From positions 13,566 through 77,565 of the IMG/VR virus record IMGVR_UViG_3300009506_000016: a stretch of DNA of 64,000 nucleotides; one strand, 5' to 3'. Every line of letters begins with the position of its first letter. The stretch's first letter is position 1. Of this stretch, positions 24,408 through 36,570 are shown piece by piece. The position numbers and the translations under genes were made by a program. This DNA comes from a virus. The notes under the pieces are model-generated. The model saw only the letters and a program-made list of their open reading frames with translations, did not search any database and was not told the DNA's origin.

Positions 24408-26027
24408 TTATTTGTATCCGATGAACTCGTTGATCAGTTGCGGTACGTTTCCATCAAACCCGGCCACGTCCAGAGCAAGCGGATCAGAAGTGTCACCAAT
24501 CGTATACCCGGTGGGTGTCATTGACATGGTAACCAGATTGACATCATGTCTTACATGAGATCGATACTGGTTTAGAGCAACAAACGGATGAACCCAACCT
24601 GCCCAAGTTTCACTGTCTGTGATGCAAACAAATGCGTCAAAGTCACGGCCTTGTCTCTTTGCCCAAGAAAAAGCGAGTGATGCGTCTGTTCCACCAAATG
24701 ACATGTGGCTCGTTATCGCCATAGCCTGATCAAGTTTCATTCCGGCGCTGATCCCGAGCGGCCTGATATTATCAGCGAAGCCGATAATCTCGTAGTTTGG
24801 CTCGGAGTTAGCAAGAACAAGTGCCATAGCCGCCGCTCCAAGGTTTGGAGTAAAACCAGCAATGCCATTGATCGATCCGTAGGTCATTGAGCCACTCACA
24901 TCAAGCGCATAGCAGATATTCTTGTGTGTGGCCGGTGCGTTTTTGAATGCAGAGTAGAAAGTGTTCTCACATGCGTAAGAGATATCACGATCAACATTCC
25001 ACCGATTTTGACCACGCGTATCTACGCCAGCGTTATATTGCAATGATGCAATCAAAGCCTTGATAGGATGCAAGCGGTTTTTGTGCAACCACTCAACATC
25101 GTTGAGGCGGCTGATGATCAGATTCTTGGAATCGCGGTCTTTCAGAACACCATAACGAGTCATATTTGCGAGATTGCGGACCATTGCCTCAGCACCCATT
25201 TGGGGTAGTAGAGCGATCCACACGTCACGATCAGTCAGATATTCGGTTGGTACAATCTCTCTCGGTGCATTCGCTGTGCGAATCACATCGATGATACCTT
25301 CCTTATTGCCCCTGGCCGCATAATCTTTCATCACTTCTGCGGCTGTAATGATATCTGGCACAAGAAAAGTATTGTATTCCTTTCCCAATGACCACAACAT
25401 TGCCGCTTGGTGCGCCGGTGATGCAAAGCTAAAATCAACATGCGCAAGACGAATGACATCCTTCTGCGACCATCCCTCACGTTGTTGATATTTAGCCAAC
25501 TGGTAAGCCAGCGAGTTAGGGCTACGATCAAGATACCATTTGGAAACGGCCCGGCGCACAGCCCTTCCCCATCCGCGTTTTGCGTGCAAGAAACTTGCAA
25601 ACGTGAACAGGTGAGTACCAGTACGAACAACCTTCGGCAACGCATTTAGAGCTAGCTTACGTGCGTATGCCATTCCGTTTGTGTAAGACGCGGCAACTGC
25701 AAGAGCAAAAATAGCAGGATCGTTACTTGCGGCGCGTCCATTGTCGCTCACATCAACAATCATATCAATGGTGCGCGTTGGATCTTCATTAAGACATCGA
25801 AGAATGTTGGTGTAATTCTCGAACGTCCGCTTTTTCTCGTTGGCGTAGTAGGTTGGTCCTTCTGTACCAAGGATCAAAAACCGTTCAAGTTGAGTAAACA
25901 TGCCAGCATCAAACACATATCCGCCAGCGTTATTCATAACTTGCTTTTTGCCAGGAACAGGCCGAGATTGAGGAATATTACCAACCTTGTTGCTTGTTCC
26001 AGCATTGATATAGGTTTTTCGTGCCAT
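24408..26027 (-). CDS. rsr: Ro60/TROVE-domain RNA-binding protein (Rsr-like)
   Basis: NNAGGYVF, RFLILGTEG.TYY, RTGTHLF, RGWGR..R, KYQQREGWS..D..RLAH, AMVRNL; vWA MIDAS DVSGSM, GGTD, ITDSETW; GGAGG RBS before ATG at 26027. Confidence 0.95.
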   Translation of the reverse strand: MARKTYINAGTSNKVGNIPQSRPVPGKKQVMNNAGGYVFDAGMFTQLERFLILGTEGPTYYANEKKRTFENYTNILRCLNEDPTRTIDMIVDVSDNGRAASNDPAIFALAVAASYTNGMAYARKLALNALPKVVRTGTHLFTFASFLHAKRGWGRAVRRAVSKWYLDRSPNSLAYQLAKYQQREGWSQKDVIRLAHVDFSFASPAHQAAMLWSLGKEYNTFLVPDIITAAEVMKDYAARGNKEGIIDVIRTANAPREIVPTEYLTDRDVWIALLPQMGAEAMVRNLANMTRYGVLKDRDSKNLIISRLNDVEWLHKNRLHPIKALIASLQYNAGVDTRGQNRWNVDRDISYACENTFYSAFKNAPATHKNICYALDVSGSMTYGSINGIAGFTPNLGAAAMALVLANSEPNYEIIGFADNIRPLGISAGMKLDQAMAITSHMSFGGTDASLAFSWAKRQGRDFDAFVCITDSETWAGWVHPFVALNQYRSHVRHDVNLVTMSMTPTGYTIGDTSDPLALDVAGFDGNVPQLINEFIGYK

Positions 26028-26044
26028 TTCGTACCTCCAACAGA

Positions 26045-26177
26045 AAGTATAGTCGTGCAAAACGGTTGGCGGGATTCGAACCCGCCTTTTGCCATTAACC
26101 GTTATGGAGCGGCTGGTTGCTCAACCGGTACAACCTGTTCTTCTCCATTCGATGTAATAACCGACAAACAATCGTAT
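26045..26177 (-). ncRNA. Y-RNA-like/tRNA-like RNA directly upstream of Ro60
   Basis: Starts at predicted TSS; 5' ACG...GUCGGUUAU resembles array units; contains AACGGUU/AACCGUU stem stacked on GGCGGG-UUCGAAU-CCCGCC T-arm and AUGGAG/CUCCAU stem. Confidence 0.7.
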
Positions 26178-27610: not shown

Positions 27611-29788
27611 CTAATAATCAACTTTCACATCACGAATTGCGAACGTGAAGTGTTTGTCATCAAGATCAACCTCAGCGCCATCACGGGTGTCAAGATCGGG
27701 GAACCATTGTTTGCACAGCAAGACAGCAAACCGTGTTCTCTGGATCTTATCACGCACATTTCTCAAATCATTCTTCACGCGATTGAGACTCGCCTTTGCA
27801 TATTCCAGGGTCGATAGCGGATCTTTTGAGTTAGGCATATTGTTCTCAAATGATTTTATGACATCGGACATAAGTTGATTGGATGGTGTGAGTTTCTTTC
27901 CGTCAGCCATTTTTGACAACACGTCATCAATCTTTGGAGCGCTGGAATATCCCTTGATCTTTACCTCAAATTCCTTGGCGAAGTAGTGATCGATGCTTTC
28001 TTCCTTGTCTACCGGTGGTGAATATAAGCGATCATGCTTAATCCCGTAGGTTTCAAGGAATTCGATCTGCTCGTTCGTGAATTCGCTCGTGACTTTTTCC
28101 ATGATCCCGGTTGGATCTAATTCCTTGATCTTGTTGTTCAGGAATTTTTGCATGAACGTAAGCTCAAGCTCGTGATCCAGCCACCCACAATATTCGGTAG
28201 ATGTTGGCGCAGTGGCAATCTTCTTGTTCACCAGAGGAACAGCACCTAAGTCAACAAGATAGATTGTATCTTCATCGTGTTCATCATAGTAGTTATCTGG
28301 TAGCATACCAGCATCGACTAACCGATGAAACGTGTCATAACTCATTGACACTGGAAGGGTGGGCGTGTTCAAGATGCTATCTTTGACCAGGGTGTAGTTG
28401 CGATATTGATGACACTGGAAATACTCTCTGAGGCCAACATGCACAGCATCAGGAAGATTAACATGTCCAGGAATTTTTGCAAGGATGGAAAGATTCAGGC
28501 GTTTTTGATTCCATGTCAGATGATTGAATGGACAGGCCGTAGTAGAGTCTGCAAAGAATTTTGGATATCCATCGCGTGTCTTTGTGGGTACGCCGGTGCG
28601 CTTGTAGTTGAACAACTCGTGGCGTGGATAGAAGTATGCTTTGCTATCTGCCATAAGCAAGTCAATAGCATCAAGCAAGCAAAACGCATCATCGGCTGGA
28701 ACAAAATCGGTATCTTGTCCCTCAATGAACCTGAACGCCTCAGAATCAAGTGATAGCAACATGCTGTTTTGCGCATTGCCATATTCCTCATTTGTGAATG
28801 CGTTGTTCACTTCTTTGATCAATGCAACTTCGCCGATAGATCCAAGCATCTCAATAGCAATGTCTGACTTTGCGGAAGAAACAAATGCGTATGCCAGGGC
28901 CACAGGAGCAACGTATGATTGCTCATACGTCATTGACGAAACCGTATCATAATGAGTCAGATCGTGCATGTGATTGATATCAGCAAGGACATAGATGGTG
29001 TTAGCGTTCTCTGGAACGTATGTTACAGCATCCATAGTGTTGAGTATCTCAACAGGATACTGCTGGACGTTGAAGCCATCGTATCCAACTACCATCAGAG
29101 GTTGCATAACTGGAAGTGGTACTGAAACGCGCAACGCCTTCTCAGATCCAACAAATTGCTCCATGCTCGAATCAAACTCGGTAAGGTGGCTGGAATGGAT
29201 AAGAGTCCCGCCGATATTCGCTGTCATCTGAGCCATAAGCTCTTTATTATAGTAGTCACCATAACCAACCAGCATCACAGACGAAACTTTGTCGTTCAGC
29301 GCACGCATGGTATTGAGAATTTTTTGTACTTCCTGTTTGTAGTTACTTACAACCGGATATCCGTCCGTCATAAACATGAGCGATACGGTTCCAGGAAGTG
29401 CGGAAAGATTACCGATGATGTTATCATAGGTATCTGCCAGGATCTCAGAAAAGCATGTGAGGCCTACAACGCTTTTGTATTTCTGTAATGCACTTTTTAC
29501 AGTATTTTGGAATGACGAATTAACGGAAAGGCCGATAAAGATCCAGCCAAACTTCCCGTTTTCAGTTGAAAACCAACCGATTGATAAGGTATCTCCATCG
29601 CGGAGTTGCTTGGAACGCTCAACCATATCATCAACCAATTGAGGCAATGTATAATACATTGATCCAGAACGGTCAAAGATCCAAACGTGATTTGTAGGAT
29701 CAGGAACAGAAGCCTTTTCCTCAGAGCGATCCAATTCGATAGCGAACAAGTTGTACTTATTCTTTACAGGGGCTACAGATACTTTCAT
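27611..29788 (-). CDS. Large vWA-domain protein
   Basis: DRSGSM, GLTCF, FMTDGYP, VGYG.YYN. Confidence 0.8.
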   Translation of the reverse strand: MKVSVAPVKNKYNLFAIELDRSEEKASVPDPTNHVWIFDRSGSMYYTLPQLVDDMVERSKQLRDGDTLSIGWFSTENGKFGWIFIGLSVNSSFQNTVKSALQKYKSVVGLTCFSEILADTYDNIIGNLSALPGTVSLMFMTDGYPVVSNYKQEVQKILNTMRALNDKVSSVMLVGYGDYYNKELMAQMTANIGGTLIHSSHLTEFDSSMEQFVGSEKALRVSVPLPVMQPLMVVGYDGFNVQQYPVEILNTMDAVTYVPENANTIYVLADINHMHDLTHYDTVSSMTYEQSYVAPVALAYAFVSSAKSDIAIEMLGSIGEVALIKEVNNAFTNEEYGNAQNSMLLSLDSEAFRFIEGQDTDFVPADDAFCLLDAIDLLMADSKAYFYPRHELFNYKRTGVPTKTRDGYPKFFADSTTACPFNHLTWNQKRLNLSILAKIPGHVNLPDAVHVGLREYFQCHQYRNYTLVKDSILNTPTLPVSMSYDTFHRLVDAGMLPDNYYDEHDEDTIYLVDLGAVPLVNKKIATAPTSTEYCGWLDHELELTFMQKFLNNKIKELDPTGIMEKVTSEFTNEQIEFLETYGIKHDRLYSPPVDKEESIDHYFAKEFEVKIKGYSSAPKIDDVLSKMADGKKLTPSNQLMSDVIKSFENNMPNSKDPLSTLEYAKASLNRVKNDLRNVRDKIQRTRFAVLLCKQWFPDLDTRDGAEVDLDDKHFTFAIRDVKVDY

Positions 29789-29829
29789 TGTGTGTCCTTT
29801 CGAATCGAATACGAATTAGACTTACAACA

Positions 29830-29900
29830 TGGACCGTAAGAGATTCGAACTCTATCTTCTCGTTGCAACGGAGATGATCTGCCATTTGATCTAACGGCCC
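29830..29900 (-). tRNA. tRNA-Ala(UGC), imperfect
   Basis: GGGCCGU/ACGGUCC acceptor with G3:U70, A73; GAUC/GAUC D-stem; UUCGAAU T-loop; mismatches in anticodon and T stems; no CCA. Confidence 0.75.
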
Positions 29901-29909
29901 ATTTTATCT

Positions 29910-30263
29910 TTATGGAACAGGATAACTAACATCGGGAGCCGGGTACGGCTCTACAGGAGCGGGGTATCCGATATCTTGTGTTGGCCGAACAATTCTTCGT
30001 AGGAATAAAGGAATAGTAGCTTGAAGGTCTTCTTCGTGTTCTCCGCTTTCGTTTTCGTCATCTGTTGAGTTATCGGTTGTGTTAATAGCATTCATTTCAA
30101 TGTTCTTTGGAACACGAGTTGGAGTCGAAAAAGATACTACGGCAGGATCATTGTTATCGATCATATAAGCCTTAGCTCTGTTTTTCATTATACCAAACAT
30201 GATAAAAGCGAGAATGAATGATACAAATAGAATAATTATCGTTTTTTGTTTTAGTGAGGTCAT
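29910..30263 (-). CDS. Membrane-anchored protein with YPAP repeats
   Basis: Signal/TM, acidic linker, GYPAPVEPYPAP..SYPVP; start reassigned to MTSLK. Confidence 0.6.
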   Translation of the reverse strand: MTSLKQKTIIILFVSFILAFIMFGIMKNRAKAYMIDNNDPAVVSFSTPTRVPKNIEMNAINTTDNSTDDENESGEHEEDLQATIPLFLRRIVRPTQDIGYPAPVEPYPAPDVSYPVP

Positions 30264-30285
30264 TGTTGCCAACCTTAAATAAGTG

Positions 30286-30322
30286 GCCCGGTGGGTAAGG
30301 AGGTGAAAAAAACCCACCGGGC
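30286..30322 (-). ncRNA. 11-bp hairpin displaying anti-SD loop (UUUUUUCACCUCCUU)
   Basis: GCCCGGUGGGU/ACCCACCGGGC stem; loop matches the 16S rRNA 3' tail. Confidence 0.55.
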
Positions 30323-30335
30323 GCTCAATATTGAA

Positions 30336-30473
30336 CACGGTAATGTGGTGAGAAACCGGTTTAGCTCTGGCCGGGATTCGAACCCTAGAGCGAACAAGTA
30401 TTACTCGTCCAGCAACCACGCCACTAGCCATCATAGTCTGGTAGATAGATAACAGTCTCTCTTTCGTACCGCG
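30336..30473 (-). ncRNA. Y-RNA-like array unit 6 (insert with T-loop hairpin)
   Basis: CGCGGUA-CG...GAGAGACUG-UUAUC...CGGUUUCUC...UACCGUG scaffold; GGG-UUCGAAU-CCC. Confidence 0.7.
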
Positions 30474-30486
30474 AAAGTCTATTTTC

Positions 30487-30565
30487 ATTCGGTAATAAGT
30501 TGCGCTCGATAAAAAACTTCTGTACTGAAGTTTACCGAAGGTAACCGAAGCGCGGCGTACCGAAT
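30487..30565 (-). ncRNA. Y-RNA-like array unit 5 (short insert)
   Basis: AUUCGGUA-CG..GCGCUUCGGU-UACC...AUCGAGCGC...UACCGAAU. Confidence 0.7.
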
Positions 30566-30585
30566 CTTTATTAGGTTGTTAAAAC

Positions 30586-30661
30586 AAGGTAATAAATTAG
30601 CGCTCGATTTATTAGTTTCGTTTCATATACAAAGTTTGGTTATCGAACACAAGCGTACCTT
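30586..30661 (-). ncRNA. Y-RNA-like array unit 4 (short insert)
   Basis: AAGGUA-CG...GUGUUCGAU-AACC...AUCGAGCGC...UACCUU. Confidence 0.65.
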
Positions 30662-30785
30662 ATTATCTGTCTCGTGGGTGATGCGCCTATCACCCACTTA
30701 TTCCATTCCGCACCGCAACCAACTTGAAGGAGCTTGACCAAGGAGATCCCGGCGGCGCTCACCGGTGAGCCTTGCTAAGTAATAA

Positions 30786-30916
30786 TCTGGTAATGTATTT
30801 GATCACCATGTTTAGCGTCTTAACCACTTAGACCACACGGAGCCTCGGCTCACAGGTTGGGATTCGAACCCAAATATCTCTGCCCAAGTCAGATAACAGT
30901 GATCTTCCGTACCAGA
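30786..30916 (-). ncRNA. Y-RNA-like array unit 3, YrlA-type permuted tRNA mimic
   Basis: UCUGGUA/UACCAGA and GAUCACUGU/AUGGUGAUC scaffold; T-arm UUGGG-UUCGAAU-CCCAA, capped stem, then D-arm GUCU-AAGUGGUUA-AGAC. Confidence 0.8.
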
Positions 30917-30930
30917 AAGATTCAATAATA

Positions 30931-31074
30931 AAGTGGTAATAAAAGTAGGCTGGACATTATTTTTCCTCTGCCATTGAGCTACACACGGATCTTCTTTTTC
31001 CGCATGACGGGATTCGAACCCGCAACCTATTGTTGTTTATACAATTGAGATAACCCAACCAATCCGTACCACTT
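30931..31074 (-). ncRNA. Y-RNA-like array unit 2, YrlA-type permuted tRNA mimic
   Basis: AAGUGGUA/UACCACUU scaffold; T-arm GCGGG-UUCGAAU-CCCGU, loop-closed acceptor CAUGCGGA/UCCGUGUG, D-arm UA-GCUC-AAUGGCA-GAG. Confidence 0.85.
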
Positions 31075-31091
31075 AAGTTTTCAATGTTCTG

Positions 31092-31159
31092 GCGGTATTA
31101 AGATTGCAGTCGATTTAAGAGTCTGTATACTTGTAGATAACCGACTTGCTTCGTACCGC
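31092..31159 (-). ncRNA. Y-RNA-like array unit 1 (short insert)
   Basis: GCGGUA-CGAA-GCAAGUCGGU-UAUC...AUCGACUGC...UACCGC. Confidence 0.7.
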
Positions 31160-31268
31160 ATCATCATAGTCGCTTGTGCCGTTGGGTTTGACTTAAGGAG
31201 GTCCATAGAGTAGCTAGAACTCGGGACAAGCGATGAACCGTTATTTGTTTTTGTTCTAGCATGTATAT

Positions 31269-31297
31269 ATTATACGACTATTCAGAATTATTGTCAA
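31269..31297 (-). promoter_or_regulatory. Consensus promoter driving the ncRNA array
   Basis: TTGACA-17-TATAAT, with no supported ORF for ~1 kb downstream. Confidence 0.85.
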
Positions 31298-31763
31298 TAG
31301 GCAATTTTTCTTGGTCGTTATCTTTCTGAGTAACTGACTTCATTGCTTTCTCATAACGATCTTTTGAGATAAATACAAGCTCGTTCTCAAAAAGAACAGC
31401 GAATTGAGGTCGATAGCCAGTTTTATCGTGATGCCAACGAGCAGACGAATGAATAAAACTGTCATCATCACTCCAATATTTATTAACAAAGCGATCATTG
31501 ATATCATCGCCAGCAATATTGACATAATCTTTATTACTAGCCGCGTAGTAAAGAAAGATATCATCAATCTTTGACGGAAGATCAAATTCATCATCCATAT
31601 TCACGTCAAGAGCTTTGCATAGGCCAGATAATTGTAACTGATACCAGTAAGGAATATATGGATCACGGCGATGCTTGTAGAGCGCCCGGATCAACAACTC
31701 CACTTCCTTTGACGACACTTTCTTTTCGCGTAAAAGCTGAATGGTTGCTCGATACTTTGACAT
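31278..31763 (-). CDS. Hypothetical protein
   Basis: AAGGA RBS before MSKYR. Confidence 0.6.
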   Translation of the reverse strand: MSKYRATIQLLREKKVSSKEVELLIRALYKHRRDPYIPYWYQLQLSGLCKALDVNMDDEFDLPSKIDDIFLYYAASNKDYVNIAGDDINDRFVNKYWSDDDSFIHSSARWHHDKTGYRPQFAVLFENELVFISKDRYEKAMKSVTQKDNDQEKLPIDNNSE

Positions 31764-31765
31764 AG

Positions 31766-32215
31766 CTATTTCCTTGTGAAGAATAGTTTTGAAAACCAAG
31801 AAAGATGAGTGCGTTTCTCATAACATTGTTTGCATACAAAGCGTCCATAGCTGTAATCAAAATCATTTAAAAGGTTTTCAAGCTGTTGTGGGCTATCAAT
31901 GCTAACGCTATCAATATGACCGCAAGAACATGGGTAACTAATAATGATTCCTTGTTTTTCATTCCAACCATGATATGTGAAATAATAATGATACATTCCA
32001 CCATCATTCTCAATAGAATTAACAGTATGCACAAACTGTATAGGATCAGAACCCTTAGTAACACGAATAACATCTGCTAAAGAGCAATCAAGAAAGTAGG
32101 CCAGATGCTTAAGTCGCTCAACGTATCGATAATCGTTTGACTTCTTTTGGTCGTAAACTGATTTATTCCACCATTTCTCAATACTTTGTTTGATTAATTC
32201 ACTCATATCTGGCAT
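31766..32215 (-). CDS. Hypothetical Zn-finger protein
   Basis: CSCGH...CKQC. Confidence 0.6.
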   Translation of the reverse strand: MPDMSELIKQSIEKWWNKSVYDQKKSNDYRYVERLKHLAYFLDCSLADVIRVTKGSDPIQFVHTVNSIENDGGMYHYYFTYHGWNEKQGIIISYPCSCGHIDSVSIDSPQQLENLLNDFDYSYGRFVCKQCYEKRTHLSWFSKLFFTRK

Positions 32216-33042
32216 TACGGTATCTCCCTAACTCTGTAGTGTTCAGGCCATTCTTCCGGGTCTGATCCGCTTGTTGATTTATATCCAAGTTTCTTAGCCA
32301 ATGCACTACCGGATTGTTTCATATAGAATGGAATCCCGTATATTGAGCATTGTAGCCAAGCGTACTTGGCCCATCCCCAATTCATTTCTCGTGCCTGTGG
32401 TCCGCTTTCGCCACCAACAATCACCCAATCTAACTTTGTGATCCAATCTTTGAAATTTATATAGGAAAGTAATGGCTCGGCGCTGATAAAGTTCTTTCCA
32501 GGCCACATTTCCAATAATATAGGTATACGTGCATCGGCGGTGTCTTGGTTTTCTGTAGTGATCCCGAGCCTTATGTGTAAGTTTCCATCAGGATCTTTGA
32601 TCCATCTTTCAGGAAACATGCGCTGTGCATTCTCGATTCGTTTCGTAAGAATCAGAAATTCAATGTATCCACCGGCTATTTCTCCGGCACGATCAAGAGC
32701 ATTCCACAAATCATTGCGCCACTCATCAGGAACTTCATCATCAAACACATCACTGAGTGATGAAACAAATACTCGGTGAAACTGCTTATGATCAAATGCG
32801 CATTTGGCCCATGTGAACACGCTATTATGCGTTCTCTCACTTGTTAATTTACGTGGTGCGCCCTTCCCCCAAGAGCCTTTATCTGTCCATTTGTAGTAAG
32901 TGTTTTGCCTTTCGGCGTAACAAAACTTACATCCGGGACTGATCTTTGTGCATCCAATCCACCAATTAAGTGTTGAACCGGGATGCCAAGATCCATCTTG
33001 CCGCTTTGTAGCGGTCCATCCTATCTTGGTTTCTTTTCCCAT
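32215..33042 (-). CDS. DUF5131 / phage Gp37Gp68-family protein
   Basis: TKIGWT, GCTKISPGCKFCYAE, VFVSSLSD, ILTKR, SAEPLL, WVIVGGESGP, FYMKQ. Confidence 0.9.
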   Translation of the reverse strand: MGKETKIGWTATKRQDGSWHPGSTLNWWIGCTKISPGCKFCYAERQNTYYKWTDKGSWGKGAPRKLTSERTHNSVFTWAKCAFDHKQFHRVFVSSLSDVFDDEVPDEWRNDLWNALDRAGEIAGGYIEFLILTKRIENAQRMFPERWIKDPDGNLHIRLGITTENQDTADARIPILLEMWPGKNFISAEPLLSYINFKDWITKLDWVIVGGESGPQAREMNWGWAKYAWLQCSIYGIPFYMKQSGSALAKKLGYKSTSGSDPEEWPEHYRVREIP

Positions 33043-33091
33043 GCGCCACCTATATTTTATTAGAAACTTCCCTATATAATATTATAACCTA

Positions 33092-33162
33092 AAGGATCAG
33101 ATCGAGTCGAACGATCATTGACGGCTTCAAAGGCCGGTGTCCTACCATTAGACGATGATCCT
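33092..33162 (-). tRNA. tRNA-Gln(UUG)
   Basis: AGGAUCA/UGAUCCU acceptor, D-loop AAUGGU, anticodon loop CUUUGAA, GAUCG-UUCGACU-CGAUC T-arm; no CCA. Confidence 0.85.
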
Positions 33163-33168
33163 TAAATT

Positions 33169-33468
33169 CTAGTATTCGCTTGGTAGCAAAATACAGGTTG
33201 AGCTTCTATCTGCCTCGGTAATAATCCATATCTTTGTATTATCATTGAGCAGATAGGCGGAAAGAATACGTGTTCCGCCGTTGATGGATTTGTTGTTTTC
33301 CTGCTTGTCAAAGGTTGACACAACTCCCCAATCACCAAGGGCATGTTTCATGAGGAATTCTTGTGGGCGCTGTTTTGCCTCATCAAGTGCATATTGAGCG
33401 CCTGTGGTAATCACTATTTGCCCAAGCGCGAACAACGGTTTTCTGGTATTAGGTATCTTTGGTAGCAC
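33169..33468 (-). CDS. Conserved hypothetical protein (F.LGQ.V.T.GA...H..GDWG family)
   Basis: Recognisable plasmid/phage family pattern, IWIITEADRS.T.ILLP.EY. Confidence 0.75.
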   Translation of the reverse strand: MLPKIPNTRKPLFALGQIVITTGAQYALDEAKQRPQEFLMKHALGDWGVVSTFDKQENNKSINGGTRILSAYLLNDNTKIWIITEADRSSTCILLPSEY

Positions 33469-34051
33469 AGTCGCTTACTCCATTATGGTCAGGGTCGCAG
33501 AGCATATTTTCAATGCCATTGACTCCATAAGGATCAGCCATATTGACAGGAACAATGAAGAATGTATCCAGCCGGGTTGCTTGAGCAAGCGCTTTTGTGA
33601 TCCCGGCCTTTACAGCGGTATTAATCGCCGCCGCGTCAACAATGGCCCATCCTTTGTTTTGTAAAAATGACACAAGATTGCTTACATCTTCGATGTCACC
33701 AAGCTGGCCGCGATTGAAACCGGCCATTGCTTTCAATTCCTCTATAGAAGTTATGGTTGTGAGTTTAGCGGAGTCCCAAGCATAGAACGCAACCCCTCTT
33801 TCTCCAATAGGCCACACAATCAAAAACTTCGTGCTTGATGGATCTACAATAATTGTGGACCACCATGCACCGCCCAAAGCACTCCGAACAAGGGCCATAG
33901 TCTGAAACTTTCCAATCTGGATCAATTCACCAGGAGATACAGCGTACTCAAGACCTGGAGCTTGCATTGCCGCAGAGCAACCGTATGATAAAATGACGGA
34001 TAGCAACAGAGCAACACGAAACACATGTGACATTACTTTATTCAATTTCAT
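33449..34051 (-). CDS. Putative lipoprotein
   Basis: Hydrophobic signal ending LSYGC (lipobox-like). Confidence 0.55.
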   Translation of the reverse strand: MKLNKVMSHVFRVALLLSVILSYGCSAAMQAPGLEYAVSPGELIQIGKFQTMALVRSALGGAWWSTIIVDPSSTKFLIVWPIGERGVAFYAWDSAKLTTITSIEELKAMAGFNRGQLGDIEDVSNLVSFLQNKGWAIVDAAAINTAVKAGITKALAQATRLDTFFIVPVNMADPYGVNGIENMLCDPDHNGVSDCATKDT

Positions 34052-34769: not shown

Positions 34770-36140
34770 TCAGGATGCTTCTTCAACGTCAACTGCGTTT
34801 GGATCTTCCTTGACAATACCCTCAAGAACCTGGAACGCATAGTTCTTCGCTTTGTAAGCACGAATTCCACTCGTGTTTTCTACGCGAATCACCACACCTT
34901 CCATCAAGTGACGTTTATCAAGAGTTGAACATCTATTGTCCAGAAACTTTTCGAGAATAACATTCAGAACACTGCTAACGTATGATTGTTCTTCATTTAC
35001 ATGAATATAAATCATTCTTAGAACAGGAACATGTTTCAGAAATAGCTCAGAGCATCGTTTCATAGTTTGCAACCACGATAACTCTGTCTCAATTCCATCC
35101 TCGTTTTGCACAGTGATGCGATACACGTAAAAGTCAAATGCTGGATTCATGCCACCATTATCATTCACGGTATTGCATCCGTATGAGTAAACCATTGGCC
35201 TACTGCCAATAACATCAAAAGGAAACTTAACAAACTTGTCACGTATTTCCTTTTGTAAATCTTTATCCTTGATTTTATCAATAGATTGAGAATTCATAAT
35301 CGGAGATCCGAACGTATCGAACCCGACTATCTCGTAGTATATGGTTTCCCCTTTGCGAAGTCTCCCGATCATTGACTTGTGAATTTGCCAGCGATAATGT
35401 TCCCTTCCAAGTCCAGTGATATCTTCACGGTTGTTGCATATCGTGTTTCGAGTACCGGTCACATATTCATACTTTTCTGTGACCACCGGTGCAATAACCT
35501 CACGCTTCAATACACGGTTTACCAAACTCGCAATCATTCCAAAGCGTTCATGCTGTGCTTTGACGAATCCTGTTCGTCCGCTTGTTCCATGAAGTTTCTC
35601 TGTAATGATGAAGAAAGATCCTGGTGGGATCGTGTCCATATAATACCGGATCTGCTCGGTATCGTAGTGCTTGTTGAGCATGTAATGATCCCTAACCTTT
35701 ACGGGTTTGTCGGATCTCGATTGGGCTTTGCGGGTGGCCTCTGTCACATATTTTGTACATATTGGATTTCCGTTTAGCTCGTTGAACGTAAGTCCTTGTA
35801 CAAGTTCTTTTGTACTACCGGTCCATTCGAACGCTGATATCTTAACGGCAAACCCTTCTGACTTCACGCCCCTGAACGGCTGGACCCTAACTCTCCTGGT
35901 ATCCTCAAAGAAACCAGTAACGGTTGTGTCTGCATTCTTGGTAGCATCCCTATAAAGATTGTTGTAGTGGCAAAACTCATGGGATAGCTGACCATCAGGC
36001 GGAAAGATAACAACAAGATCTCCGATATGGTAATCCTTACTAACAATGAAGTTTGCACCGTTGTATGGCAGAATCATAAGTCGATCAGCATTTGGGTGAT
36101 CGAGCAATTGATGAACGGATATGACGTGTGCGTTATACAT
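34770..36140 (-). CDS. ATP-dependent RNA ligase (DRB0094/Rnl2-like with N-terminal OB domain)
   Basis: HPNADRL N-domain; motif I TEKLHGTS; YYEIVG; FDFYVY; HVPVL; EGVVIR; YKAK. Confidence 0.85.
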   Translation of the reverse strand: MYNAHVISVHQLLDHPNADRLMILPYNGANFIVSKDYHIGDLVVIFPPDGQLSHEFCHYNNLYRDATKNADTTVTGFFEDTRRVRVQPFRGVKSEGFAVKISAFEWTGSTKELVQGLTFNELNGNPICTKYVTEATRKAQSRSDKPVKVRDHYMLNKHYDTEQIRYYMDTIPPGSFFIITEKLHGTSGRTGFVKAQHERFGMIASLVNRVLKREVIAPVVTEKYEYVTGTRNTICNNREDITGLGREHYRWQIHKSMIGRLRKGETIYYEIVGFDTFGSPIMNSQSIDKIKDKDLQKEIRDKFVKFPFDVIGSRPMVYSYGCNTVNDNGGMNPAFDFYVYRITVQNEDGIETELSWLQTMKRCSELFLKHVPVLRMIYIHVNEEQSYVSSVLNVILEKFLDNRCSTLDKRHLMEGVVIRVENTSGIRAYKAKNYAFQVLEGIVKEDPNAVDVEEAS

Positions 36141-36570
36141 CCTCGTTATCTCCTTTTTCTCCAACAGTACCAAGATCAACGGTTTGTCCTGGGGGTGCAT
36201 ACTCAACTCCGTAGTCCTCAAGAAGTTGTTGAGCATCATGGAATTCATTTAGAGTAGTTGTAAACGCAACTTTGAATGCCACCATCATTTCCTCAAGGCT
36301 CGTTTGTTGATGGACGCATTGGCTTGCGAGATACATGATCAATGGTCCGCCGCGTGCTAGTAGATCGGCCCACACCATCTCTCGCTCTACAGTGTCATCG
36401 AATACGAATTCGAGAAGTATTGTTTGGTCAAGAAATTCAACCGACCAAACTCGCTGAGGTTCCCCGTTAGAATCAATCCTGTCACTTCGGGTGACAATTC
36501 CTTCGCCCTCAGTGACAGGAAGATTACTAACTATTCTCTCAGCTAATTTTAAACTAGCTGGATCAATCAT
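36133..36570 (-). CDS. Hypothetical protein
   Basis: ORF coupled to neighbours. Confidence 0.6.
   Translation of the reverse strand: MIDPASLKLAERIVSNLPVTEGEGIVTRSDRIDSNGEPQRVWSVEFLDQTILLEFVFDDTVEREMVWADLLARGGPLIMYLASQCVHQQTSLEEMMVAFKVAFTTTLNEFHDAQQLLEDYGVEYAPPGQTVDLGTVGEKGDNEDV

What the first reader, a model, noticed from the sequence alone, without database searches (positions are those of the whole stretch)
30336..31297. Promoter-driven array of six Y-RNA-like modules with a constant scaffold and variable cargo
Seen: a perfect TTGACA-17-TATAAT promoter precedes ~950 nt with no supported ORF, holding six units of 68-144 nt. Each is closed by a terminal stem with invariant 5'-GGUACG and 3'-UACC. 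An asymmetric internal loop, a second stem and a (G/A)U(U/A)A(U/C)C motif follow. Stem sequences differ between units but keep pairing (GCGGUA/UACCGC, AAGUGGUA/UACCACUU, UCUGGUA/UACCAGA, AAGGUA/UACCUU, AUUCGGUA/UACCGAAU, CGCGGUA/UACCGUG). Inserts vary from short AU-rich loops to full tRNA mimics. Known: Ro60 binds a Y-RNA stem formed by the RNA ends, and the rest is an effector module. Inference: a processed, cassette-like library of Ro60 adaptors, each giving the phage Ro60 a different partner or decoy function.
Basis: partly seen in the sequence, partly recalled or inferred. Interest (0 to 1): 0.93.

Follow-up and report, generated by a model that had tools for sequence, protein, structure and literature searches.

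The report
Six-unit phage Y-RNA array
A marine-sediment phage that encodes the RNA-binding ring protein Ro60 also carries, behind its own strong promoter, six small RNAs that share one Ro60-type "handle" and differ in the rest; this is a variant of the known Y-RNA/Ro60 pairing, and one unit shows up in a metatranscriptome with its two ends joined.

Summary
It lies on the minus strand: a 12/12 sigma-70 promoter (31297-31269), six units of 68-144 nt and a strong hairpin (30322-30286). All six share GGUACG, 10-11 nt, (G/A)U(U/A)A(U/C)C, then UACC. They also share two stems whose sequences differ but pair only with their own partner.

A full descriptor finds six hits in the window, all in the array, against 0.43 per shuffled window. 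A canonical Ro60 gene (TROVE + Ro60 vWA) lies 4.3 kb downstream on the same strand.

The same handle, with GGGCCG instead of GGUACG, forms arrays of 2-6 units beside Ro60 genes in other viral contigs, in named actinophages and in many bacteria. The GGUACG flavour itself sits directly beside TROVE genes in two independent contigs. The array is therefore a polycistronic set of YrlA/YrlB-type Y RNAs: a known kind in a new variant. No unit reaches Rfam's YrlA threshold.

This scan has noted Ro60-plus-RNA-array loci on other DNA many times (287 notes in at least 254 genomes).

One new lead: a run labelled metatranscriptomic holds a 173-nt contig that is a closed 143-nt cycle of unit 6 plus 2 and 3 flanking nt. 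This points to unit-length processing and end-joining, possibly a circular Y RNA. It rests on one low-depth contig. Ro60 binding and partner or decoy roles are untested.

The parts
31269..31297 (-). Sigma-70-type promoter: TTGACA (31297-31292), 17-nt spacer, TATAAT (31274-31269). Inferred start near 31262.
   Evidence: 12 of 12 matches. Sequence read. The start site is inferred.
31160..31262 (-). 103-nt leader without the Y handle. It contains ACCUCCUUA (31202-31194), the 9 letters shared with the 16S rRNA 3' end (recalled from memory).
   Evidence: z = -1.2, weakly structured. The descriptor does not call it as a unit.
31092..31159 (-). U1, a short (YrlB-like) unit. Stem 1 is GCGGUA/UACCGC, the handle is GGUACGAAG, the motif is GUUAUC, and the insert is a small hairpin.
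   Evidence: z = -2.9.
30931..31074 (-). U2, a YrlA-like unit. Its insert holds a T-arm, a loop-closed stem and a D-arm in permuted order.
   Evidence: Rfam YrlA positions 25-83 match 31029-30963 at 21.9 bits, E 0.064, below the gathering score of 69. Also.
30786..30916 (-). U3, a second long unit with a T-arm-like hairpin (UUGGGUUCGAAUCCCAA) followed by a closed stem and a D-arm-like segment.
   Evidence: The tRNA-like order was read by eye. There is no Rfam hit, and folding z = -0.1.
30665..30785 (-). 121-nt G+C-richer segment without the handle, between U3 and U4. It has three hairpins and two CUCCUU motifs (30745-30740, 30732-30727).
   Evidence: z = -0.46. No Rfam match. Its function is unknown.
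30583..30664 (-). U4, a short unit. Stem 1 is 9 bp including U.G at 30662/30585. Stem 2 is 9 bp and the motif is AUAACC.
   Evidence: z = -4.06. In run X3 the base at 30662 reads C on the RNA strand, turning U.G into C-G.
30487..30565 (-). U5, a short unit. Stem 1 is AUUCGGUA/UACCGAAU and the motif is GUUACC.
   Evidence: z = -2.94.
30336..30473 (-). U6, a long unit. Its insert forms three hairpins in D / anticodon / T order, with a T-loop GGGUUCGAAUCCC.
   Evidence: ARAGORN calls tRNA-Ile(AAU)-like at 30438-30362 only at the 80% threshold.
30333..30475 (-). 143-nt species seen as a closed cycle: U6 plus UU at the 5' side and UUC at the 3' side. The 3' end at 30333 is joined to the 5' end at 30475.
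   Evidence: run X2 (library labelled METATRANSCRIPTOMIC) has one 173-nt contig (143 + 30). It maps to 30353-30475 and then to 30333-82: 'goes back 143', no shared letters, none in between, depth 4.4, and the flanks are uncovered in X2.
30286..30322 (-). 11-bp G+C-rich hairpin, the probable (weak-U-tract) terminator of the array. Its loop shows UCACCUCCUUA (30306-30296).
   Evidence: -24.6 kcal/mol, z = -4.85. The consensus terminator scan did not call it, so termination is inferred.
24408..26060 (-). Phage Ro60 (TROVE + Ro60 vWA domain), 4.3 kb downstream of the array on the same strand.
   Evidence: PF25045 1.9e-45 and PF05731 2e-34. D. radiodurans Rsr 3.4e-95, human and Xenopus Ro60 about 1e-85. 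The start codon is uncertain (26060 TTG or 26027).
34770..36248 (-). ATP-dependent RNA ligase, 3.5 kb upstream on the same strand. It is a candidate end-joining enzyme, by inference only.
   Evidence: phrog_968 RNA ligase, 1e-54. PF09414, 3.4e-11. No sequence match to any solved PDB structure. No RtcB in the 77.6-kb record.

Best explanation
The region is a non-coding operon of six Y RNAs for the phage's own Ro60.

Inferred steps:
- Host RNA polymerase starts at the consensus promoter and transcribes about 940-980 nt, up to the hairpin at 30322-30286.
- Host endo- and exonucleases cut the A/U-rich 13-17-nt spacers and trim to within a few nt of each terminal stem.
- Each released unit presents the same Ro60-docking handle: a terminal helix GGUA/UACC with a bulged C and a G.U pair, an asymmetric internal loop, a 6-9-bp second stem and a UUAUC-type loop entry.
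- Each unit carries a different distal module. U1, U4 and U5 have short hairpins (YrlB-like). U2 and U3 have permuted T-arm/closed-stem/D-arm domains (YrlA-like). U6 has a cloverleaf-ordered tRNA-like domain.
- By analogy with Deinococcus and Salmonella Rsr-Y RNA-PNPase, and with Thermus phage phiLo Ro60-Yrl-PNPase, the distal modules tether or gate Ro60 with host RNA-processing enzymes during infection.

What is shown:
- The anatomy of the units.
- Cognate-specific pairing of both stems.
- Linkage of this handle type to TROVE genes in independent genomes.
- One contig, from a run whose library is labelled metatranscriptomic, holding a discrete unit-length U6 species with joined ends.
For: - Promoter: 12 of 12 matches.
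- Six handle-bearing units on one strand against 0.43 per shuffled window.
- Stems pair only with their own partner: 1/720 for the six units, and 0 of 20000 permutations for 33 units from 11 loci.
- Both stems appear in every minimum-energy fold.
- Canonical Ro60 on the same strand.
- Homologous handles (GG-N-N-CG, 10 nt, GUUAYC, closing stem) occur in arrays of 3-6 right beside Ro60 in viral contigs L001, L002, L012, L013, L015 and L016. They also occur in Microbacterium phage FuzzBuster and Mycobacterium phage Sebata, and in more than 120 bacterial loci with arrays of 2-6.
- GGUACG-type units flank TROVE genes in G001 and L102.
- Units in L016 and L013 pass the Rfam gathering score of a nematode stem-bulge (Y-homologue) family.
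- The U2 core aligns to Rfam YrlA.
- Literature: Y RNAs near Ro60 in 254 bacteria and 22 phages, the motif GNCGAAN0-1G, and YrlA and YrlB processed from one precursor (PMC4201824). Phage Ro60 binds two phage Yrl RNAs and host PNPase (PMC12135203). Vertebrate Y RNAs have a bulged C and a UUAUC motif (PMC4726728).
- A run labelled metatranscriptomic holds a 143-nt cycle equal to U6 plus 2 and 3 nt.
Against: - There is no binding or expression experiment.
- The only RNA evidence is one low-depth contig for one unit. The tool flags that run as 'RNA? (probably DNA)'.
- No unit reaches Rfam's YrlA gathering score (21.9 against 69), and none hits Y_RNA or sbRNA models.
- The array starts 4.3 kb from Ro60, with six or so ORFs and a tRNA in between. 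This is just outside the 4-kb rule of Chen et al.
- The first G of the published GNCGAA motif is U here, and only U1 and U6 keep CGAA.
- Folding z-scores of U2, U3 and U6 are not significant.
- The terminator has a poor U-tract.
Confidence: 0.8

Rival explanations
1. The units are excised and covalently circularised, for example by the phage's ATP-dependent RNA ligase acting on the paired 5'-P/3'-OH ends. The functional species are then closed circles, or circular intermediates that are re-opened in the tRNA-like domain. The shared handle would serve mainly as the processing and ligation platform. Ro60 may or may not bind.
For: -: a perfect 143-nt cycle (173 = 143 + k-1) with an unambiguous junction and no inserted letters. 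The flanks are not covered in that run. Joining would cap stem 1 with a 5-nt loop, and the fold is kept.
- An RNA ligase gene lies 3.5 kb away.
- Loop-capped versions of the same handle exist as genes in other phages: tRNA-shaped Y RNAs in G001 and L004.
- Archaeal Rnl circularises C/D-box sRNAs (PMC9014305 abstract).
Against: - It rests on a single contig at depth 4.4, and only for U6.
- Ligation during library preparation or head-to-tail cDNA artefacts cannot be excluded.
- The RNA status of the run is uncertain.
- An RNA ligase (PF09414) was found in only 1 of 5 other Ro60-array phage records, all incomplete.
- The strict co-occurrence of the handle with TROVE genes is better explained by Ro60 binding.
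Confidence: 0.3
2. The tRNA-like units act mainly as decoys or sponges for host tRNA-directed enzymes, such as anticodon nucleases, modification enzymes, RNase P/Z or CCA-adding enzyme. They would do this independently of Ro60, with the common stem only giving stability.
For: - T-arm and D-arm elements in U2, U3 and U6.
- YrlA RNAs are known substrates of tRNA enzymes (PMC4201824).
- The phage carries its own tRNAs and an RNA ligase nearby.
Against: - Three of the six units have no tRNA-like part yet keep the same invariant handle.
- The handle travels with TROVE genes across unrelated genomes.
- No default-threshold tRNA call.
Confidence: 0.1
3. The region is a decayed tRNA gene cluster or a chance set of hairpins with no function as a family.
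For: - Phage tRNA genes flank the region.
- T-loop-like GGUUCGAAUCC strings are present.
- The long units do not fold better than shuffles.
Against: - Six invariant GGUACG/UACC handles at fixed spacing, with cognate-only pairing.
- A perfect promoter.
- The same architecture beside Ro60 in many genomes.
Confidence: 0.02

Closest known systems
Bacterial and phage Y RNAs YrlA/YrlB with Rsr (Ro60): Salmonella, M. smegmatis, mycobacteriophages (Chen et al. 2014, PMC4201824; Rfam RF02553)
   Same: - Encoded on the same strand as a Ro60 orthologue.
- The RNA ends pair in a stem carrying a ..CGAA..-type motif.
- At least one RNA has a T-arm/closed-stem/D-arm tRNA-like domain, and others are short hairpins.
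- Several RNAs come from one precursor (M. smegmatis YrlA + YrlB).
- The GUUAYC motif and its 10-nt spacing are shared with more than 120 bacterial loci.
   Different: - Six units rather than the one to two (D. radiodurans up to four small RNAs) described in the paper.
- The handle is GGUACG/UUACC, not GNCGAA.
- The array has its own promoter and hairpin and lies 4.3 kb from Ro60, not adjacent to it.
- No RtcB/RtcA; an ATP-dependent RNA ligase is nearby instead.
- It scores below Rfam's YrlA threshold.
Thermus phage phiLo Ro60 with Yrl1/Yrl2 (PMC12135203)
   Same: A phage-encoded Ro60 with phage-encoded Y-like RNAs of stem-bulge-stem design. That paper shows binding and ternary complexes with host PNPase.
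   Different: - Two RNAs directly upstream of the gene, against six in a separate unit here.
- The phiLo Ro60 is only distantly similar to this one (E 6.5e-07 over about 150 residues).
- Nothing has been tested biochemically here.
Metazoan Y RNAs and nematode stem-bulge RNAs (PMC4726728; Rfam RF01656)
   Same: - A lower helix with a single bulged C followed by G.U.
- An asymmetric internal loop, an upper stem, and UUAUC at the entry to the loop.
- Relatives of these phage units (L016, L013) pass the gathering score of a nematode sbRNA model.
   Different: - The window's own units hit no Y_RNA or sbRNA model at E up to 10.
- They are polycistronic, bacterial-promoter driven and carry tRNA-like inserts.
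- Homology as opposed to convergence on a Ro60-binding shape is not settled.
Archaeal small RNAs circularised by ATP-dependent RNA ligase (C/D-box sRNAs, T. kodakarensis Rnl; PMC9014305)
   Same: Small structured RNAs become head-to-tail joined. A ligase that matches Pfam's RNA_ligase family (PF09414) is encoded nearby here.
   Different: - The evidence here is one metatranscriptome contig.
- The enzyme, the in-vivo occurrence and any function are unknown.
- The RNA family is different.

Membership tests
Y RNA (Ro60-associated ncRNA; YrlA/YrlB class) | 5' and 3' ends pair in a stem that carries the conserved Ro60-contact motif (GGUCCGA/UUGACC in vertebrates; GNCGAAN0-1G in bacteria). | tested here: met
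   All six units have GGUA/UACC + bulged C. Five have a G.U pair next. U1 and U6 keep CGAA(N)G. This is a variant spelling (U-A in place of G-C or C-G), so it is met in form and not letter for letter.
Y RNA (Ro60-associated ncRNA; YrlA/YrlB class) | Encoded close to (Chen et al.: within 4 kb of) and on the same strand as a Ro60 orthologue. | tested here: inconclusive
   The strand is the same. The nearest unit is 4.28 kb from the Ro60 start. The same GGUACG handle is directly adjacent to TROVE genes in G001 and L102.
Y RNA (Ro60-associated ncRNA; YrlA/YrlB class) | At least one RNA has a tRNA-like domain (T-arm, closed acceptor-like stem, D-arm). | tested here: met
   U2 aligns to YrlA model positions 25-83. 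The U3 arrangement was read by eye. A U6 cloverleaf is called only at a relaxed ARAGORN threshold.
Y RNA (Ro60-associated ncRNA; YrlA/YrlB class) | Physically bound by, and stabilised by, Ro60. | not testable with these tools
   Needs RIP, EMSA or co-expression.
Rfam YrlA (RF02553) | Score at or above the curated gathering threshold (69 bits). | tested here: not met
   The best score is 21.9 bits, E 0.064, for the U2 core only. The GGGCCG-type units of other phages also fail it, so the model looks narrow.
Metazoan Y RNA / nematode sbRNA (Rfam Y_RNA, RF01656 and relatives) | Covariance-model match; bulged-C helix plus UUAUC. | tested here: not met
   No hit at E up to 10 for the window's units, although the two motifs are present. 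Relatives in L016 and L013 do pass RF01656.
tRNA genes | Cloverleaf recognised by ARAGORN or Rfam RF00005. | tested here: not met
   None in 30280-31270 at default settings.
Ligase-made circular small RNAs | Head-to-tail junction in RNA reads; resistance to 3' exonuclease. | tested here: inconclusive
   One 173-nt cyclic contig for U6 in a run labelled metatranscriptomic. No raw-read count, no second run, no biochemistry.

The most novel reading that the evidence does not exclude
Phage Y RNAs are cut to unit length and covalently closed into circles, with U6 as a 143-nt circle whose junction caps the Ro60-binding stem. The phage's own ATP-dependent RNA ligase is the likely enzyme. This would give exonuclease-proof Ro60 adaptors or tRNA mimics. 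It would also explain why the same fold occurs in nature in both 'ends-in-the-handle' and 'ends-in-the-acceptor-stem' permutations.
Probability: 0.3. Interest if true: 0.8.

Novelty: new variant of a known kind. Interest (0 to 1): 0.55.

Why it matters
Ro60/Y RNA particles are studied in autoimmunity and in bacterial stress biology, but what phages do with them is barely known. This locus, with the related arrays found here, shows that many Ro60 phages and bacteria carry several (up to six) Y RNAs built on one handle with interchangeable heads.

It also shows that the handle shares the bulged-C helix and UUAUC motif of animal Y RNAs. That bears on whether bacterial, phage and animal Y RNAs have a common origin.

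The locus gives a compact test set for how the distal module of a Y RNA sets Ro60's partner: one promoter, six RNAs and one protein. If the head-to-tail junction of unit 6 is real, it would be the first circular Y RNA that I could find reported, and a use for phage RNA ligases beyond tRNA repair.

Tried and rejected
- BLASTN of the array against 50,697 phage records found no match.
- A covariance model built from the three short units (R1) found only those three in the window. The long units were missed, so I used a scripted descriptor instead.
- MAFFT alignment of 18 short units left the 3' ends ragged. I therefore did not use the count of structure pairs and ran a cognate versus non-cognate permutation test.
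- The exact U6 handle found nothing in viral or metagenome contigs.
- The GGTACG YrlA-type pattern found nothing in 185,579 species genomes.
- The loose handle pattern in viral contigs gave 79 loci, nearly all single chance hits. Only G001 was real.
- Sequencing runs: no RNA holder was listed for the whole stretch. The source-like run X1 is DNA. X2 and X3 cover only about 145 nt each. The uncovered parts say nothing about expression.
- The RNA ligase had no sequence match in the PDB.
- tblastn of seven neighbouring proteins against the Ro60-flanking loci of other phages found nothing, so there is no conserved protein partner besides Ro60.
- Literature searches found no paper describing Y RNA arrays of this size in phages or a circular Y RNA. 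The 2020 Annual Review on bacterial Ro60 is not held in the library, and the supplementary tables of Chen et al. are not held either.
- I considered and rejected a CRISPR-like or other plain repeat array, because the units differ in length and sequence apart from the handle. I also rejected a protein-coding reading.
Full report
**Observation**

The feature lies on the minus strand of a 77,565-bp single-contig virus record; the window is C1:13566-77565. A sigma-70-type promoter, TTGACA-17-TATAAT, sits at 31297..31269. It scores 12 of 12 and is the only perfect site in 29500-33500.

Downstream on that strand there are six GGTACG within 700 nt, out of 20 in the whole 64-kb window on both strands. 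Each is closed by a TACC whose flanks extend the helix by 2-5 further pairs. The units are:
- U1, 31159-31092 (68 nt)
- U2, 31074-30931 (144 nt)
- U3, 30916-30786 (131 nt)
- U4, 30664-30583 (82 nt)
- U5, 30565-30487 (79 nt)
- U6, 30473-30336 (138 nt)

In every unit GGUACG is followed after 10 nt (11 in U6) by (G/A)U(U/A)A(U/C)C. The 6-9 nt before that motif pair with a segment 7-10 nt upstream of the closing UACC. ViennaRNA recovers both stems in the minimum-energy fold of all six units.

A 103-nt leader (31262-31160) and a 121-nt segment between U3 and U4 (30785-30665) lack the handle. A strong 11-bp hairpin (30322-30286; -24.6 kcal/mol, z = -4.85) follows U6.

**Is it more than chance?**

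A scripted descriptor required the handle, stem 1 of at least 6 bp and stem 2 of at least 6 bp. It finds six hits in the real window, all in the array and all on one strand. It finds a mean of 0.43 (maximum 2) per dinucleotide-shuffled window on both strands.

When the 3' halves are permuted among the six units, only the identity permutation reaches the observed pairing. That is 26 of 20000 permutations, matching the 1/720 expected. For 33 units collected from 11 loci, no permutation out of 20000 does so. The stems therefore covary with their own partners.

Folding energy alone is significant for the short units (z = -2.9 to -4.1). It is not significant for U2, U3 and U6 (z = -1.7, -0.1, -1.7). 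The case for the long units therefore rests on the shared handle and on comparison with other loci.

**Coding potential**

The ORFs overlapping the region are short (40-53 aa), with one exception: a 192-aa frame, 30488-29910, that runs through U6 and the hairpin.
- The 192-aa frame has no Pfam match, and its 117-aa part from the ATG at 30263 has no PHROG match.
- It has an in-frame ATG at 30263, just after the hairpin. The sequence from there reads like a membrane-protein N-terminus (read).

I take the upstream 75 codons to be a fortuitous extension. I did not test this with a homology search.

**Context**

ORF 24408-26060 on the same strand is a canonical Ro60.
- Pfam gives vWA_Ro60 at 1.9e-45 and TROVE at 2e-34.
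- Sequence matches to solved structures are D. radiodurans Rsr at 3.4e-95, and human and Xenopus Ro60 at about 1e-85.

Between Ro60 and the array lie several small ORFs, a 725-aa protein of an uncharacterised phage family (phrog_2426), tRNA-Ala and a small membrane protein. Upstream lie two small ORFs, a DUF5131 protein, tRNA-Gln and an ATP-dependent RNA ligase (34770-36248; phrog_968 at 1e-54, PF09414 at 3.4e-11).

The record has no RtcB. The only run holding the whole stretch is a marine-sediment metagenome, which may be its source.

**Relatives**

No DNA relative exists in the phage collection. The closest Ro60 proteins are 35-44% identical. The loci around those Ro60 genes are nevertheless informative.

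In viral contigs L001, L002, L012, L013, L015 and L016, three to six units lie head to tail immediately upstream or downstream of Ro60 on its strand. They share the same architecture: a closing stem, GG(G/U)CCG, 10 nt, GUUA(U/C)C, and a 3' strand U(C/U)G(N)CC. Short units of 60-80 nt mix with long units of 120-150 nt that carry GGUUCGA-type T-loops.

Two such units pass the Rfam gathering score of a nematode stem-bulge RNA family. Stem-bulge RNAs are described as homologous to vertebrate Y RNAs in PMC4726728.

Unannotated units of the same kind lie in the intergenic gaps upstream of Ro60 in Microbacterium phage FuzzBuster (three units, the first YrlA-like), and at least one in Mycobacterium phage Sebata.

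The phyla include Chloroflexota, Actinomycetota, Alphaproteobacteria, Myxococcota, Cyanobacteria and Deinococcus. My descriptor finds arrays of two to six units there, including six in a Rhodomicrobium MAG.

The GGUACG spelling of this window recurs beside TROVE genes in two places:
- A 161-kb viral contig, G001. Three units plus two tRNA-shaped relatives lie upstream of a 538-aa Ro60 (38% identical), and one unit lies just downstream.
- Metagenome contig L102. It has a TTGACA-17-TATAAT promoter, three units and then a Ro60 that is 44% identical.

**What it is**

The anatomy matches the published description of Y RNAs.
- Vertebrate Ro60 binds a lower helix with a single bulged cytidine and an opposite-strand bulge. 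A UUAUC motif sits in the loop domain (PMC4726728).
- Ro60 contacts GGUCCGA. Bacterial YrlA and YrlB share GNCGAAN0-1G near the 5' end.
- At least one Y RNA per species carries a tRNA-like domain.
- M. smegmatis YrlA and YrlB come from one precursor. Likely Y RNAs lie within 4 kb of Ro60 in 254 bacteria and 22 phages (PMC4201824).
- A phage Ro60 (phiLo) binds two phage-encoded Y-like RNAs and forms complexes with host PNPase (PMC12135203).

Here the helix is GGUA/UACC, then a bulged C, then G.U in five of the six units. U1 and U6 keep CGAA(N)G.

The U2 insert aligns to the T-arm, closed-stem and D-arm core of Rfam YrlA (positions 25-83, 21.9 bits, E 0.064). U3 has the same order by eye. The U6 insert has three hairpins in D / anticodon / T order, which ARAGORN calls as a tRNA-Ile(AAU)-like cloverleaf only at 80% of its threshold. 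U1, U4 and U5 carry only small hairpins, like YrlB.

No unit reaches Rfam's YrlA gathering score of 69 bits, and none hits the Y_RNA, sbRNA or tRNA models. By the curated model this is not a member. The same model also misses the GGGCCG-type units of the other phages, so that failure says little about function.

**Mechanism**

The following steps are inferred except where noted.
- The array is transcribed from its own promoter as a precursor of about 940-980 nt.
- The precursor is cut in the 13-17-nt A/U-rich spacers and trimmed to the stems.
- The six RNAs dock on Ro60 through the common handle.
- Their different heads tether or gate Ro60 with different host RNA enzymes, or mimic tRNA.

The hairpin after U6 has a poor U-tract, and everything down to Ro60 is on the same strand. 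Partial read-through into Ro60 is therefore possible.

**A new lead: a head-to-tail junction at U6**

I laid public runs on the region. One run from another study is labelled METATRANSCRIPTOMIC (sediment). It holds a single 173-nt contig identical to the window. The contig covers 30353-30475 and then jumps back to 30333-30382.
- The joint is 'goes back 143', with no shared or inserted letters.
- Since 173 = 143 + 30, this is what a 31-mer assembler (k = 31 assumed for these contigs) emits for an isolated 143-nt cycle.
- The cycle is U6 plus UU on the 5' side and UUC on the 3' side. Nothing else of the 1,071-nt stretch is covered in that run.

This fits an abundant, discrete, unit-length U6 RNA whose ends are joined. 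It could be a circle or a head-to-tail cDNA. Joining would cap stem 1 with a 5-nt loop, and the predicted fold is unchanged.

Genes for loop-capped versions of the handle exist elsewhere. These are tRNA-shaped RNAs whose anticodon arm is replaced by the Y stem. They are seen in G001 and L004, and earlier notes of this scan describe the same class.

A ligase that matches Pfam's RNA_ligase family (PF09414) lies 3.5 kb from the array. An archaeal ATP-dependent RNA ligase circularises C/D-box sRNAs (PMC9014305 abstract).

The caveats are serious:
- It is one contig at depth 4.4, for one unit.
- The tool marks the run 'RNA? (probably DNA)'.
- Ligation or template switching during library preparation cannot be excluded.
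- Only 1 of 5 other (incomplete) Ro60-array phage records has a PF09414 gene.

I rate an in-vivo circle at about 0.3.

A second run of unknown kind holds a 151-nt contig over U4. It carries one change, at 30662, which turns a U.G pair of the extended stem into C-G.

**Novelty and verdict**

Y RNAs, phage Ro60, phage Y-like RNAs and co-transcribed Y RNA pairs are all published. Multi-unit loci turn out to be common. This scan has already logged Ro60-plus-RNA-array loci on other DNA 287 times, in at least 254 genomes.

What is particular here:
- The GGUACG/UUACC spelling of the handle. The YrlA-type GGTACG pattern (with an exact GGTTCGAATCC T-loop) matched none of the 185,579 species genomes.
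- The autonomous promoter-to-hairpin unit, 4.3 kb away from Ro60.
- The mix of three head types in one transcript.
- The two handle-less segments.
- The possible circular form.

I class it as a new variant of a known kind, with interest 0.55.

Noticed in passing
window 31202-31194, 30745-30740, 30732-30727, 30306-30296 (minus strand): The handle-less parts of the transcript carry CCUCC-type strings. ACCUCCUUA is in the leader, two CUCCUU are in the U3-U4 segment, and UCACCUCCUUA is in the loop of the terminal hairpin. The last equals the 3' end of 16S rRNA as I recall it. On the plus strand it reads as a perfect TAAGGAGGTGA with no usable start codon after it. Other first-stage notes flag the same strings. 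I only confirmed the letters.
   Followed up: partly
L100 about 2915-2790 and 2700-2575 (minus strand; G001); L004 9443-9565 and 9574-9701: These are tRNA-shaped Y RNAs with a normal acceptor stem, D-arm and T-arm. The anticodon arm is replaced by the Y handle, capped by a 4-nt loop (GUAA or GAAA in G001). This is a circular permutation of the YrlA layout. Rfam calls the L004 ones tRNA with a long insert.
   Followed up: partly
L019 4690-4980 (Microbacterium phage FuzzBuster), L018 4745-4930 (Mycobacterium phage Sebata), L020 4560-4900 (Gordonia phage Mareelih): Intergenic gaps upstream of the annotated 'Ro-like RNA binding protein' genes hold Y-like sequence that the records do not annotate: three units in FuzzBuster (GG-N-CGAAG-type handle plus GGUUAYC), at least one in Sebata, and looser handle-like motifs read by eye in Mareelih.
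   Followed up: partly
L010 10407-10724: A bacterial class-A RNase P RNA (165.7 bits, gathering 100) lies inside a 168-kb viral contig. It sits amid more than 20 tRNA genes and about 8 kb from a Ro60 gene. Phage-borne RNase P RNA seems unusual, and host contamination was not checked.
   Followed up: no
window 29910-30488 (minus strand): The 192-aa ORF is probably an over-extension. Its first 75 codons cover U6 and the hairpin. An in-frame ATG at 30263 starts a hydrophobic N-terminus and gives a small membrane protein of 117 aa.
   Followed up: partly
L100 about 3240-3045 (minus strand; G001): Just upstream of the G001 array there is a second promoter-like site (TTGACG...TATAAT). It is followed by about 150 nt without an ORF and a clean intrinsic terminator. 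This may be another small RNA gene.
   Followed up: no
L101 1121-1290 (minus-strand coordinates of the script): A GGUACGGA-handle unit in a 2.9-kb metagenome contig appears to carry two consecutive T-arm/closed-stem/D-arm modules in one insert.
   Followed up: no
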